From the NCBI RefSeq assembly GCF_009914755.1, contig NC_060925.1: 64,000 bases of DNA; one strand, 5' to 3'. Positions 1,676 through 7,560 of this stretch are shown here, piece by piece. Origin of the DNA: the human T2T-CHM13v2.0 reference genome, Homo sapiens. A program made the translations under genes and the position numbers. A model generated the notes under the pieces. That model saw only the letters and a list, made by a program, of their open reading frames with translations. It did no database searches and was not told the DNA's origin. How positions within the stretch are numbered: the first letter of the stretch is position 1; each line of letters opens with the position of its first letter.

Positions 1676-1893
1676 GAGACGGAGGTAGAGGGAGGACACA
1701 GAGCCGCGCCGCCTGCACCAGAGACCTTCGCCTCGCCCCGCCGGTTCCTCACCCTCGGGGAGCAACATGGATAATCTCAGTGATACCTTGAAGAAGCTGA
1801 AGATAACAGCTGTTGACAAGACTGAGGATAGTTTAGAAGGATGCTTGGATTGTCTGCTTCAAGCCCTGGCTCAAAATAAATGATTCAGTGTAG
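1676..1893 (+). pseudogene. RAP1GDS1: Processed retrocopy of a short RAP1GDS1 (SmgGDS) mRNA, 5' part: GC-rich 5'UTR plus intact 38-codon ORF (1767-1883)
   Basis: ATG at 1767 (gcaacATGG) gives MDNLSDTLKKLKITAVDKTEDSLEGCLDCLLQALAQNK*, the first 37 residues matching the recalled RAP1GDS1 N-terminus. It is intronless and preceded by a CpG-rich UTR-like segment. The symbol names the parent gene. Confidence 0.92.
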
Positions 1894-2274
1894 GGGGGAG
1901 GAGCCAAGATGGCCGAATAGGAACAGCTCCGGTCTACAGCTCCAGCGTGAGCGACACAGAAGACGGGTGATTTCTGCATTTCCATCTGAGCTTTGAAGAG
2001 AGCAGTGGTTCTCCCAGCACGCAGCTGGAGATCTGAGAACGGGCAGACTGCCTCCTCAAGTGGGTCCCTGACCCCTGACCCCCGAGCAGCCTAACTGGGA
2101 GGCACCCCCCAGCAGGGGCACACTGACACCTCACACGGCAGGGTATTCCAACAGACCTGCAGCTGAGGGTCCTGTCTGTTAGAAGGAAAACTAACAAACA
2201 GAAAGGACATCCACACCGAAAACCCATCTGTACATCACCATCATCAAAGACCAAAAGTAGAGAAAACCTCAAAG

Positions 2275-3292
2275 ATGGGGAAAAAACAGAACAGAAAAAC
2301 TGGAAACTCTAAAACGCAGAGCGCCTCTCCTCCTCCAAAGGAACGCAGTTCCTCACCAGCAACGGAACAAAGCTGGATGGAGAATGATTTTGACGAGCTG
2401 AGAGAAGAAGGCTTCAGACGATCAAATTACTCTGAGCTACGGGAGCACATTCAAACCAAAGGCAAAGAAGTTGAAAACTTTGAAAAAAATTTAGAAGAAT
2501 GTATAACTAGAATAACGAATACAGAGAAGTGCTTAAAGGAGCTGATGGAGCTGAAAACCAAGGCTCGAGAACTACGTGAAGAATGCAGAAGCCTCAGGAG
2601 CCGATGCGATCAACTGGAAGAAAGGGTATCAGCAATGGAAGATGAAATGAATGAAATGAAGCGAGAAGGGAAGTTTAGAGAAAAAAAGAATAAAAAGAAA
2701 TGAGCAAAGCCTCCAATAAATATGGGACTATGTGAAAAGACCAAATCTACGTCTGATTGGTGTACCTGAAAGTGAGGCGGAGAATGGAACCAAGTTGGAA
2801 AACACTCTGCAGGATATTATCCAGGAGAACTTCCCCAATCTAGCAAGGCAGGCCAACGTTCAGATTCAGGAAATACAGAGAACGCCACAAAGACACTCCT
2901 CGAGAAGAGCAACTCCAAGACACATAATTGTCAGATTCACCAAAGTTGAAATGAAGGAAAAAATGTTAAGGGCAGCCAGAGAGAAAGGTCGGGTTACCCT
3001 CAAAGGGAAGCCCATCAGACTAACAGCAAATCTCTCGGCAGAAACCCTACAAGCCAGAAGAGAGTGGGGGCCAATATTCAACATTCTTAAAGAAAAGAAT
3101 TTTCAACCCAGAATTTCATATCCAGCCAAACTAAGCTTCATAAGTGAAGGAGAAATAAAATACTTTACAGACAAGCAAATGCTGACCGATTTTGTCACCA
3201 CCAGGCCTGCCCTAAAAGAGCTCCTGAAGGAAGTGCTAAACGTGGAAAGGAACAACCAGTACCAGCCACTGCAAAAACATGCCCAATTGTAA
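2275..3292 (+). pseudogene. L1 ORF1p, disrupted
   Basis: MGKKQNRKTGNSK... and ...KRPNLRLIGVPESE... lie in different frames. There is a +1 A in the A-run at ~2681-2687 and CAA TAA (for CAA GAA) at ~2714-2719. Confidence 0.95.
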
Positions 3293-3355
3293 ACACCATC
3301 GATGCTAGGAAGAAACTGCATCAACTAATGAACAAAATAGCCAGCTAACATCATA

Positions 3356-6300: not shown

Positions 6301-7184
6301 ATTACCATTCAGGACATAGGCGTGGGCAAGGACTTCATGTCCAAAACACCAAAAGCAATGGCAACAAAAGCCAAAATTGACAAATGGGATCTCATAAAAC
6401 TAAAGAGCTTCTGCACAGCAAAAGAAACTACCATCAGAGTGAACAGGCAAACTACAACATGGGAGAAAATTTTTGCAACCTACTCATCTGACAAAGGGCT
6501 AATATCCAGAATCTACAATGAACTCAAACAAATTTACAAGAAAAAAAACAAACAACCCCATCAAAAAGTGGGTGAAGGACATGAACAGACACTTCTCAAA
6601 AGAAGACATTTATGCAGCCAAAAAACACATGAAAAAATGCTCATCATCACTGGCCATCAGAGAAATGCAAATCAAAACCACTATTGAGATATCATCTCAC
6701 ACCAGTTAGAATGGCAATCATTAAAAAGTCAGGAAACAACAGGTGCTGGAGAGGATGTGGAGAAATACAAACACTTTTACACTGTTGGTGGGACTGTAAA
6801 CTAGTTCAACCATTGTGGAAGTCAGTGTGGCGATTCCTCAGGGATCTAGAACTAGAAATACCATTTGACCCAGCCATCCCATTACTGGGTATATACCCAA
6901 ATGACTATAAATCCTGCTGCTATAAAGACACATGCACACGTATGTTTATTGCGGCATTATTCACAATAGCAAAGACTTGGAACCAACCCAAATGTCCAAC
7001 AATGATAGACTGGATTAAGAAAATGTGGCACATATACACCATGGAATACTATGCAGCCATAAAAAATGATGAGTTCATGTCCTTTGTAGGGACATGGATG
7101 AAATTGGAAACCATCATTCTCAGTAAACTATCGCAAGAACAAAAAACCAAACACCGCATATTCTCACTCATAGGTGGGAACTGA
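3356..7184 (+). pseudogene. L1 ORF2p (endonuclease / reverse transcriptase / C-terminal Cys-rich), disrupted by frameshifts
   Basis: ATG ACA GGA TCA at 3356 is followed by a 1-nt deletion at ~3441 (AATGGATA for AATTGGATA). A long open frame 3466-~6545 contains the EN motifs GDFN and SDH and the RT motif FADD. Further frameshifts occur at ~6541-6549 and ~6683, and it ends FSLIGGN* at 7184. Confidence 0.95.
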
Positions 7185-7404
7185 ACAATGAGATCACATG
7201 GACACAGGAAGGGGAATATCACACTCTGGGGACTGTGGTGGGGTGGGGGGAGGGGGGAGGGATAGCATTGGGAGATATACCTAATGCTAGATGACGAGTT
7301 AGTGGGTGCAGCGCACCAGCATGGCACATGTATACATATGTAACTAACCTGCACAATGTGCACATGTACCCTAAAACTTAAAGTATTAAAAAAAAAAAAA
7401 AAGC

Positions 7405-7538
7405 ATGATTCAGTGTAGTTGTAGTGCTAGATATATTATATGGAATTATCAGCAGTTTACCAGTTGGTTCTTTATTAGTACTCCTGATGTCTTAAACAAA
7501 AATGAATAACTGTTTATCTTTTAAAAAAATAAATAAAT
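7405..7538 (+). pseudogene. RAP1GDS1: 3' part of the RAP1GDS1 retrocopy (alternative 3' end plus A-rich tail), separated from the 5' part by the L1
   Basis: The sequence resumes at the duplicated ATGATTCAGTGTAG (7405-7418), has a variant polyA signal AATGAA at 7501 and an A-rich tail from 7523. A 16-bp repeat AAAAAATAAATAAATA at 1660-1675 and 7539-7554 bounds the whole retrocopy as a candidate TSD (low complexity). Confidence 0.75.
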
Positions 7539-7560
7539 AAAAAATAAATAAATAAATAAA

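What the first reader, a model, noticed from the sequence alone, without database searches (positions are those of the whole stretch)
1676..7554. Retrocopy of an ultra-short RAP1GDS1 isoform hidden in an SRGAP2 intron
Seen: a CpG-rich UTR, an ATG in good Kozak context and an unbroken 38-codon ORF (1767-1883). With the L1 removed, this is followed by ~130 nt of unrelated 3' sequence, an A-rich tail and a 16-bp candidate TSD. Known: residues 1-37 match the SmgGDS N-terminus, and the canonical protein (~600 aa) continues ...AQNNTETSEK. Inference: identity stops at about coding nt 112, where I recall an exon boundary. The source RNA was therefore a complete (5'UTR-containing) but very short transcript spliced to an alternative terminal exon. 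It is a fossil record of a germline RAP1GDS1 isoform. It would also have been multiplied by the human-specific SRGAP2 duplications if it predates them. It is easily missed because it is under 60 aa and split by 5.5 kb of L1.
Basis: partly seen in the sequence, partly recalled or inferred. Interest (0 to 1): 0.8.

Follow-up and report, generated by a model that had tools for sequence, protein, structure and literature searches.

The report
RAP1GDS1 exons fused to L1 retrocopy
This is a single 5.9-kb retrotransposed copy of a hybrid RNA, made of the first two RAP1GDS1 exons spliced onto a promoter-crippled L1 element that sits in that gene's second intron, and it has already been described in print.

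Summary
They include the CpG-rich leader, the 38-codon ORF at 1767-1883, the exact exon 1/exon 2 junction, the A-rich tail and a 14-16 bp target-site duplication (TSD).

The main inference is wrong. The L1 did not land later in a short retrocopy. Window 1879-7522, which is the L1 with both of its flanks, is collinear at 98.0% with RAP1GDS1 intron 2 on chr4. There a canonical acceptor (…TTTTCAG|) lies 15 nt upstream of the same L1. The source RNA was therefore exon 1, exon 2 and a 5.6-kb terminal exon holding a whole L1.

The L1 lacks 524 nt of its 5'UTR, and the missing stretch is bounded by GT…AG. That makes it a spliced L1 of the SpIRE97/622 kind, with a crippled promoter. The window element is thus an L1 carrying a spliced 5' transduction and a 120-nt 3' transduction.

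Copies lie in SRGAP2A, B and C (segmental duplication) and, as an independent insertion, on chr10.

All of this is published. Larson et al. 2018 list the L1s as SpIRE(97/622)-6, -35 and -79. Law et al. 2026 describe the RAP1GDS1/L1PA2 chimeras and the promoter co-option.

I add three small points: a third, 5'-truncated offspring on chr2 with a ~200-nt 3' transduction; weak evidence on the order of the events; and a gene-conversion patch specific to the SRGAP2B copy.

The parts
1660..1675 (+). 5' copy of the target-site duplication, in the A-rich tail of an Alu-like repeat (about 1517-1675)
   Evidence: AAAAAATAAATAAA(TA) recurs at 7539-7554. Law et al. Table S5 gives AAAAAATAAATAAA, 14 bp, for the SRGAP2C paralogue. 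The sequence is low-complexity, so the exact length (14-16 bp) cannot be fixed. 'Alu-like' is recalled, not tested.
1675..1770 (+). RAP1GDS1 exon 1: 5'UTR plus ATGG (96 nt)
   Evidence: Matches chr4:101576429/31-101576524. On chr4 it is followed by GTAAGT.
1771..1878 (+). RAP1GDS1 exon 2 (108 nt)
   Evidence: 100% identical to chr4:101608362-101608469, which is flanked by …TTTAAGCAG| and |GTAAGT.
1767..1883 (+). 38-codon ORF: the SmgGDS N-terminus (37 aa), then K and a stop
   Evidence: It is open in 4 of 4 chimeric copies. It is only 117 nt long, so this is no evidence of selection.
1879..1893 (+). 15 nt of RAP1GDS1 intron 2 (AATGATTCAGTGTAG) lying between the cryptic acceptor and the L1; this is also the 5' TSD copy of the source L1
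   Evidence: chr4 reads …TTCTCTTTTCAG|AATGATTCAGTGTAG|GGGGGAGGAGCC. The window reads CAAAATA|AATGATTCAGTGTAG|GGGGGG.
1894..7402 (+). L1 (PA2 according to both papers) with an inherited 5'UTR splice deletion (SpIRE97/622; scar at 1990|1991) and its poly(A). ORF1 and ORF2 are both interrupted in this copy.
   Evidence: The 524-nt gap is bounded by GT…AG in 24 of 25 related full-length L1s. ORF pieces of 142, 113, 1012 and 157 aa. Listed as SpIRE(97/622)-6.
3258..3441 (+). Patch inside the L1 that is specific to the SRGAP2B copy; probably an interlocus gene-conversion tract
   Evidence: 14 of 14 consecutive B-private differences are shared with an older L1 at chr1:144,673,851-144,674,311.
7403..7522 (+). 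3' transduction: RAP1GDS1 intron 2 sequence downstream of the source L1, including the source L1's 3' TSD copy at 7405-7418
   Evidence: 99% identical to chr4:101640896-101641011. Similarity to chr4 stops after …TTTATCTTTT.
7523..7538 (+). Degenerate poly(A) tail of the chimeric RNA
   Evidence: Absent from chr4, which continues CTCAAAGTG.
7539..7554 (+). 3' copy of the target-site duplication
   Evidence: Same string as 1660-1675.

Best explanation
Window 1675-7538 is one retrotransposition product. I lay the history out as steps and mark which are shown here and which are inferred.

1. A spliced L1 RNA (5'UTR nt 98-621 removed) inserted in sense orientation into RAP1GDS1 intron 2 on chr4. 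It landed 15 nt downstream of a pre-existing acceptor. The position is shown; the order of events is inferred.
2. Lacking most of its internal promoter, this L1 was transcribed from the RAP1GDS1 promoter. The pre-mRNA was spliced exon 1 - exon 2 - cryptic acceptor. It read through the whole L1 and past the L1's own poly(A) site. It was polyadenylated about 115 nt further on, in the intron. The structure of the product is shown. The promoter defect is taken from Larson 2018, who assayed it on an L1.3-based construct, not on this element.
3. That capped, spliced, polyadenylated RNA was reverse-transcribed by L1 machinery into the A-rich tail of an Alu-like repeat in an SRGAP2 intron, antisense to SRGAP2, making a 14-16 bp TSD. 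The insertion is shown. That the element's own proteins did this in cis is inferred.
4. The insertion came before the SRGAP2 segmental duplications and was copied into SRGAP2B (this window) and SRGAP2C (shown).
5. The same chr4 source made at least two more insertions (shown). One is a full-length chimera on chr10. The other is a 5'-truncated copy on chr2 with a longer 3' transduction.

Today the window copy is an inert fossil. Both L1 ORFs are broken, and I saw no promoter evidence for the 38-codon ORF.
For: - **Three-block match to chr4:** exon 1, exon 2 and the L1-containing block all lie on the same strand.
- **Collinearity:** window 1879-7522 aligns to chr4 L013:2380-8011 at 98.0% over 5647 columns.
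- **Exact GT-AG junctions:** exon 2 …CAAAATA|GTAAGT joins to …TTTTCAG|AATGATTC.
- **Intron 2 placement:** a motif search for the start of canonical exon 3 (AG|AT ACG GAA ACA AGT GAA AAA = N-TETSEK) gave 9 genome-wide hits. One is at chr4:101658103 (+). That puts the L1 26.9 kb after exon 2 and 17.1 kb before exon 3.
- **5'UTR deletion:** the missing 524 nt begin with GT and end with AG in 24 of 25 related full-length L1s that could be checked.
- **chr10 copy:** window 1689-7537 aligns at 97.6%. It has its own TSD (GAAAGTCTGTTT), a 14-A tail, and flanks made of an older L1.
- **chr2 copy:** the last ~150 nt of the L1, then poly(A), then ~200 nt of chr4 3' flank, then its own tail and TSD (TAAAATGCAGAAACTA).
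- **Tree of 5 family copies and 27 other L1s:** the five form one group (SH-aLRT 95). chr4 pairs with chr10 (SH-aLRT 88).
- **Polarised differences:** at the 36 sites where chr4 differs from all four chimeric copies, 25 could be polarised. In 21 chr4 carries the derived state, in 1 the offspring do, and 3 were split. chr1 and chr10 therefore share essentially no derived changes and both stem from chr4.
- **Published agreement:** Law et al. [quoted passage not shown] Larson et al. 2018, S1 Table and S1 Data.
Against: - The five L1 copies share only 2 fixed derived sites that none of the 27 outgroups carries (of 4395 evaluable columns). Kinship therefore rests mainly on structure (junctions, flanks, deletion), not on L1-internal markers.
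- Branch lengths are uneven. chr10 has 56 private changes, against 17 for SRGAP2A plus 8 on the chr1 stem. Yet the tree and 3 polarised sites place the chr1 event first. This is unexplained.
- The TSD of the window copy is low-complexity, so its length is uncertain.
- Nothing run here shows cis-mobilisation, or that the source ORFs were intact at the time.
- No ape genome was available, so the dating is indirect.
Confidence: 0.95

Rival explanations
1. A ~350-nt processed retrocopy of an ultra-short RAP1GDS1 isoform (exon 1, exon 2 and a ~130-nt alternative last exon) inserted into SRGAP2. A full-length L1 later landed inside it.
For: In the window the L1 is flanked by a 14-nt direct repeat (ATGATTCAGTGTAG at 1880-1893 and 7405-7418). 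Taken alone this looks like a TSD made on the spot. Larson 2018 read it that way, recording TSD 14 and transduction 'No'.
Against: The same L1, the same repeat and the same 5'UTR deletion lie in the parent intron on chr4 and in the independent chr10 insertion. Three identical L1 insertions at the same nucleotide are not credible. The 'TSD' belongs to the chr4 event and was copied along with it.
Confidence: 0.02
2. Serial origin. The chr1 and chr10 chimeras did not both come from chr4. Instead one was transcribed and retrotransposed, or duplicated as DNA, to give the other.
For: Both carry identical architecture. The CpG-rich transduced leader could in principle carry some promoter activity.
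Against: - chr1 holds 12-14 more nt of exon 1 and 7 more nt of 3' flank than chr10, and all of it matches chr4. chr10 therefore cannot be its parent.
- chr10 lacks the chr1-stem change in exon 1 (CACCAGAGA in chr1 against CACCACAGA in chr4 and chr10).
- chr10 groups with chr4 in the tree (SH-aLRT 88).
- Only 1 of 25 polarised sites is a derived state shared by chr1 and chr10.
- Distinct TSDs and tails rule out a DNA duplication.
Confidence: 0.05
3. Same source RNA, but mobilised in trans. The chimeric RAP1GDS1/L1 mRNA was copied like an ordinary processed pseudogene by proteins from other, active L1s. The element's own ORFs played no part.
For: - A 38-codon upstream ORF with a good start precedes ORF1 by ~400 nt and might hinder ORF1 translation.
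- ORF1 is interrupted in 5 of 5 present-day copies and ORF2 in 4 of 5.
- Only 4 of 36 chr4-specific changes are CpG-type, so the state of the source at the time is unknown.
Against: - Three independent offspring from one 5.9-kb RNA, two of them full length, fit L1 cis-preference better than rare trans events. Cis-preference is established knowledge and is cited in Larson 2018's discussion.
- Larson 2018 found that a SpIRE97/622 RNA driven by an external promoter still makes ORF1p and retrotransposes (passages).
Confidence: 0.2

Closest known systems
RAP1GDS1/L1PA2 chimeric insertions (Law et al., Cell Genomics 2026, PMC13174262; bioRxiv 10.1101/2025.02.02.635956)
   Same: This is the very same element. 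[quoted passage not shown] Table S5 lists the SRGAP2C paralogue and the chr10 copy with their TSDs. The window holds the SRGAP2B paralogue.
   Different: Their main text has no occurrence of 'chromosome 2' or 'polyadenylation', and none of its 8 uses of 'transduction' concerns a 3' transduction of this element. [quoted passage not shown] The supplementary PDFs were not readable.
SpIRE97/622, spliced integrated retrotransposed elements (Larson et al., PLoS Biol 2018, PMC5860796)
   Same: The L1 in the window is their SpIRE(97/622)-6 (PA2, SRGAP2B, opposite orientation, 5505 bp). The chr4 source is -35 (RAP1GDS1, same orientation). The chr10 copy is -79. The deletion has the same GT98…AG621 boundaries.
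   Different: They scored all three as separate events with 'Transduction: No' and TSDs of 14, 12 and 16 bp. Here -6 and -79 are shown to be offspring of -35, so their splice deletion and their 'TSD' are inherited. Their discussion foresaw the case only 'in principle', as a SpIRE downstream of a cellular promoter.
Ordinary processed pseudogene (retrocopy) of a host mRNA
   Same: Introns are lost at exact exon junctions. There is a tail and a TSD, it inserted at an A-rich L1 endonuclease-type site, and the parent gene lies on another chromosome.
   Different: 94% of the copied RNA is an L1 that lies in the parent gene's intron. Only 112 coding nt of RAP1GDS1 are present.
L1 3' transduction families (Goodier 2000 and Pickeral 2000, seen only as references in Larson 2018)
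   Same: L1 poly(A), then unique sequence identical to the source's 3' flank, then a second tail and a TSD. Three offspring are traceable to one source by that tag.
   Different: Here the tag is combined with a spliced 5' transduction of host exons.

Membership tests
Processed retrocopy of RAP1GDS1 | Exon-exon junctions of the parent gene without the introns | tested here: met
   The exon 1|exon 2 join at 1770|1771 and the exon 2|cryptic-acceptor join at 1878|1879 are both exact. The chr4 introns begin GTAAGT and end CAG.
Processed retrocopy of RAP1GDS1 | 3' poly(A) tail and flanking target-site duplication | tested here: met
   A-rich run at 7523-7538. The repeat at 1660-1675 recurs at 7539-7554. 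It is low-complexity, so the length is uncertain (14-16 bp).
   The L1 with both flanks is collinear with chr4 intron 2 (98.0% over 5647 columns).
L1 with spliced 5' transduction (mRNA/LINE-1 chimera in the sense of Law 2026) | Host exons ending at a splice donor, contiguous with the L1 5' end, inside one TSD pair; source locus identifiable | tested here: met
   The source lies at chr4:101635380-101641011 in intron 2. A second independent insertion has its own TSD.
SpIRE97/622 | Deletion of about 524 nt of the 5'UTR whose ends coincide with a GT donor after L1 nt 97 and an AG acceptor before nt 622 | tested here: met
   24 of 25 related full-length L1s show CATCTGAG|GT…AG|CTTTGAAG, with 524 or 525 nt removed. 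In the 25th (L046) the anchor string was not found. The nt 97/622 numbering is from Larson 2018.
SpIRE97/622 | The copy arose from a fresh splicing of a full-length L1 RNA (one SpIRE = one splicing event) | tested here: not met
   The window copy inherited the deletion from the chr4 SpIRE, which already carries it.
SpIRE97/622 | Reduced promoter activity of the deleted 5'UTR | not testable with these tools
   Reporter assays in Larson 2018, done on an L1.3-based construct and not on this element (passages).
L1 3' transduction | Unique sequence after the L1 poly(A) that matches the source's 3' flank, followed by a second tail and the TSD | tested here: met
   7403-7522 is 99% identical to chr4:101640896-101641011. 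The same tag is present in the chr10 and chr2 offspring.
L1PA2 subfamily | Subfamily-diagnostic positions | not tested
   The label is taken from Larson S1 Table and Law 2026. No repeat library was available here. The nearest full-length L1s are 97.5-98.5% identical.

The most novel reading that the evidence does not exclude
The L1 landed inside a ready-made cryptic terminal exon of RAP1GDS1: a strong acceptor 15 nt upstream and weak poly(A) sites about 110 and 200 nt downstream. Every transcript using that exon was therefore a capped, spliced, polyadenylated L1 mRNA that always ran past the L1's own poly(A) site. On this reading the source family is larger than reported, because a third, independent, 5'-truncated offspring on chr2 (T2T chr2:~233,045,853-233,046,212) is not named in either paper as far as I could read them.
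Probability: 0.4. Interest if true: 0.3.

Novelty: already known. Interest (0 to 1): 0.22.

Why it matters
The element is a good natural example of a retrotransposon with a crippled promoter being rescued by its host gene's promoter and splice sites. It also shows how host exons get carried around the genome by L1. That point has already been made in print, with this same locus (Law et al. 2026).

For the scan, the value is corrective.
- A direct repeat flanking an L1 inside a retrocopy need not be a local TSD.
- Checking the parent locus changes the reading from 'fossil of a tiny isoform' to 'L1 with spliced 5' transduction'.

The small additions (the chr2 offspring, the obligatory 3' read-through, and the L1-to-L1 conversion patch in SRGAP2B) refine the published account but do not change it.

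Tried and rejected
- **PDB sequence search** with the 38-aa ORF: no match at E ≤ 0.01. It gave no independent protein-level naming.
The position was obtained instead from a 22-nt degenerate pattern built from the peptide quoted in the finding.
- **Exact donor for the SRGAP2B-specific patch:** the best non-self match is only 96% over 461 nt. No perfect donor exists in this genome. The chr1:144.67 Mb L1 explains the core of the patch (14 of 14 sites) but none of the 8 flanking private changes.
- **Literature search 'RAP1GDS1' + 'retrocopy':** 0 papers.
- **Selection on the 38-codon ORF:** considered and dropped. The ORF is intact in 4 of 4 chimeric copies, with one synonymous change in chr10. 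However, 117 nt at 1-2% divergence carries no signal.
- **Dating from divergence:** chr4 differs from SRGAP2A at 66/5627 sites (1.17%), from SRGAP2B at 95/5629 (1.69%), from SRGAP2C at 87/5629 (1.55%) and from chr10 at 99/5623 (1.76%). These rates are too uneven for a firm age. The only solid bound is that the chr1 insertion pre-dates the first SRGAP2 duplication. That duplication is put at ~3.4 million years in a passage of PMC4761178.
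Full report
**What is in the window.**
- A CpG-rich leader runs from 1675.
- The ATG is at 1767. A 38-codon frame ends with TGA at 1881-1883.
- A full-length L1 5' end starts at 1894, and its poly(A) ends at 7402.
- About 120 nt of unique sequence follows (7403-7522), then an A-rich run.
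- The string AAAAAATAAATAAA(TA) at 1660-1675 recurs at 7539-7554.

**Mapping to the parent gene.** The window's own genome could be searched.
- Window 1677-1893 gave 6 matches from 6 candidates: three on chr1, one on chr10 and two on chr4.
- The chr4 matches are 101576431-101576528 (query 1-98) and 101608361-101608469 (query 94-202, 100% identity).
- On chr4 the first block ends …CAACATGG|GTAAGT. The second is bounded by …TTTAAGCAG| and |GTAAGT.
- These are exon 1 and exon 2 joined exactly at window 1770|1771.
- Window 7405-7530 also gave 6 matches: chr1 three times, chr4:101640896-101641011 (99%), chr10 and chr2.

**The decisive point.** Immediately upstream of the third chr4 block lies the 3' end and poly(A) of an L1.
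- I fetched 9.5 kb of chr4. Window 1879-7522 aligns to it without a break: 98.0% over 5647 columns.
- At the 5' side chr4 reads …GTGATTCTCTTTTCAG|AATGATTCAGTGTAG|GGGGGAGGAGCCAAGATGG. The window reads …GCTCAAAATA|AATGATTCAGTGTAG|GGGGGGAGGAGCC.
- Exon 2 is therefore spliced to a canonical acceptor 15 nt upstream of an L1 that already sat in the intron.
- The 14-nt repeat flanking the L1 in the window is the TSD of the chr4 insertion, copied along with it.
- A pattern for the start of canonical exon 3, built from the peptide quoted in the finding, has 9 matches in the genome. One is at chr4:101658103 (+).
- The L1 therefore lies in intron 2, 26.9 kb after exon 2 and 17.1 kb before exon 3.
- The source RNA was exon 1, exon 2 and a 5.6-kb terminal exon. 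It was not an ultra-short isoform later split by an L1.

**The L1 is a spliced one.** I fetched 27 related L1s. Of these, 25 have the first 97 nt about 520 nt upstream of the rest of the match. In 24 of those 25 the segment missing from our element starts GT (CATCTGAG|GTACC…) and ends AG (…TGACAG|CTTTGAAG). It is 524-525 nt long where I measured it. In the last one (L046) the anchor string was not found. This is the SpIRE97/622 deletion of Larson et al. 2018. They showed with reporters that it removes five transcription-factor sites and most promoter activity (passages).

**Other copies.**
- SRGAP2A and SRGAP2C are collinear with window 1001-8500 at 98.6% and 98.4%. The insertion therefore pre-dates those duplications. 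A passage of PMC4761178 puts them at ~3.4 and ~2.4 million years.
- No fourth chr1 copy was found.
- chr10 holds an independent insertion. It covers window 1689-7537 at 97.6%. It has its own TSD (GAAAGTCTGTTT) and a 14-A tail added 7 nt earlier than in chr1. It is nested in an older L1.
- chr2 holds a 5'-truncated copy. It carries the last ~150 nt of the L1 and its poly(A), then ~200 nt of the chr4 3' flank. It then has its own tail and TSD (TAAAATGCAGAAACTA).
- The distal part of the chr4 3' flank occurs only on chr4 and chr2 (2 matches).
- All three traceable offspring therefore run past the L1's own poly(A) site.

**Independent or serial?** The evidence favours two separate events from chr4, with chr1 perhaps the earlier.
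- Over ~5630 aligned columns the five long copies differ by 1.1-2.1%.
- At 36 sites chr4 differs from all four chimeric copies. Of these, 25 could be polarised with the 27 outgroups. chr4 is derived at 21, the offspring are derived at 1, and 3 are split.
- Of 56 chr10-private sites, 46 could be polarised. 43 are derived in chr10 and none is ancestral.
- Of 8 chr1-stem sites, 6 could be polarised. At 3 of them chr4 and chr10 share the derived state.
- A quick ML tree puts the five copies together (SH-aLRT 95) and pairs chr4 with chr10 (SH-aLRT 88).
- In exon 1, the three chr1 copies share one change that chr10 and chr4 lack.
- The long chr10 branch does not fit the 'chr1 first' order well. It has 56 private changes, 13 of them A↔T transversions. 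This stays unexplained.
- L1-internal markers are few. Only 2 family-fixed states in 4395 columns are absent from all outgroups.

**State of the copies.**
- In the window, ORF1 is in pieces of 142 and 113 aa. ORF2 is in pieces of 1012 and 157 aa.
- Across the five long copies, ORF1 is interrupted in 5 of 5 and ORF2 in 4 of 5.
- The 38-codon ORF is open in 4 of 4 chimeric copies. That is expected by chance for 117 nt.

**What is known.**
- Larson et al. 2018 list this very L1 as SpIRE(97/622)-6 (S1 Table part 1 and S1 Data passages). Their entry reads chr1:144965102 hg38, SRGAP2B, opposite orientation, PA2, TSD 14, transduction 'No'.
- They list the chr4 element as -35 (RAP1GDS1, same orientation, TSD 12) and the chr10 one as -79 (TSD 16). 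Each is treated as a separate event.
- Law et al. 2026 describe exactly the reading reached here (passages, the whole section 'Co-opted promoters…', and Table S5 passages).
- They report two independent RAP1GDS1/L1PA2 chimeras, four copies in the reference genome (chr10 plus three on chr1 by segmental duplication), and the cryptic acceptor 15 bp upstream. They also report the SpIRE source in intron 2 and three long RNA reads carrying the splice.
- The finding is therefore already known.
- The parts of those papers I could read do not name the chr2 offspring or the 3' transduction. The terms 'chromosome 2' and 'polyadenylation' are absent from Law's main text. [quoted passage not shown] The PDF supplements were not readable.

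**Verdict.** The element is an already published L1 with spliced 5' and 3' transductions, and the window copy is now inert.

Noticed in passing
window 3186-3612 (core 3258-3441): 21 of the 41 substitutions private to the SRGAP2B copy cluster in this stretch. In the core, 14 of 14 consecutive private differences (13 substitutions and a 1-nt deletion) match an older L1 ~580 kb away, at chr1:144,673,851-144,674,311 on the minus strand. None of the 8 flanking private changes match it. This is probably an L1-to-L1 gene-conversion tract that arose after the SRGAP2B duplication. NCBI's repeat mask breaks at 3286-3292, inside this patch.
   Followed up: partly
L015 ~7853-8212 (T2T chr2:233,045,853-233,046,212): A 5'-truncated offspring of the chr4 RAP1GDS1 L1. 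It carries ~150 nt of L1 3' end, a poly(A), ~200 nt of chr4 3' flank, its own tail and a 16-bp TSD. It is not named in the parts of Larson 2018 or Law 2026 that I could read.
   Followed up: yes
L014 (T2T chr10:45,363,5xx-45,369,388, minus strand): The chr10 chimera has 56 private substitutions. That compares with 34-36 on the chr4 lineage and 25 on the SRGAP2A lineage. They are spread evenly along the element, and 13 are A↔T transversions, against 1 on chr4. The cause is unknown. It conflicts with the tree's hint that chr10 is the younger insertion.
   Followed up: partly
L013 ~7880-7900 against the offspring: The 3' TSD copy of the source L1 is shorter in present-day chr4 (…AAAAGATTCAG) than in all its offspring (…AAAAG(A/C)ATGATTCAG or …AAAATGATTCAG). 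chr4 therefore lost about 2-3 nt after spawning them. The original TSD probably included the AG of the cryptic acceptor (GAATGATTCAGTGTAG).
   Followed up: partly
window 7380-7402 and the same place in chr4, chr10 and chr2: The L1's own 3' end reads AAAGTATTAAAAA… in chr4 and chr1, and TATATAAAA or TATAAAAA in chr10 and chr2. From recall only, the usual L1 end carries AATAAA here. A weakened signal would fit with 3 of 3 traceable offspring carrying 3' transductions. I did not test this against other L1 3' ends.
   Followed up: no
window ~1517-1675: The insertion went into the A-rich tail of a short Alu-like repeat (identity recalled from the sequence, not tested).
   Followed up: no
whole genome: Only three chr1 copies of the chimera were found (SRGAP2A, B and C). 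A passage of PMC4761178 describes a fourth paralogue, SRGAP2D, copied from SRGAP2B ~1 million years ago. Either it lacks this intron segment or it was not picked up.
   Followed up: no
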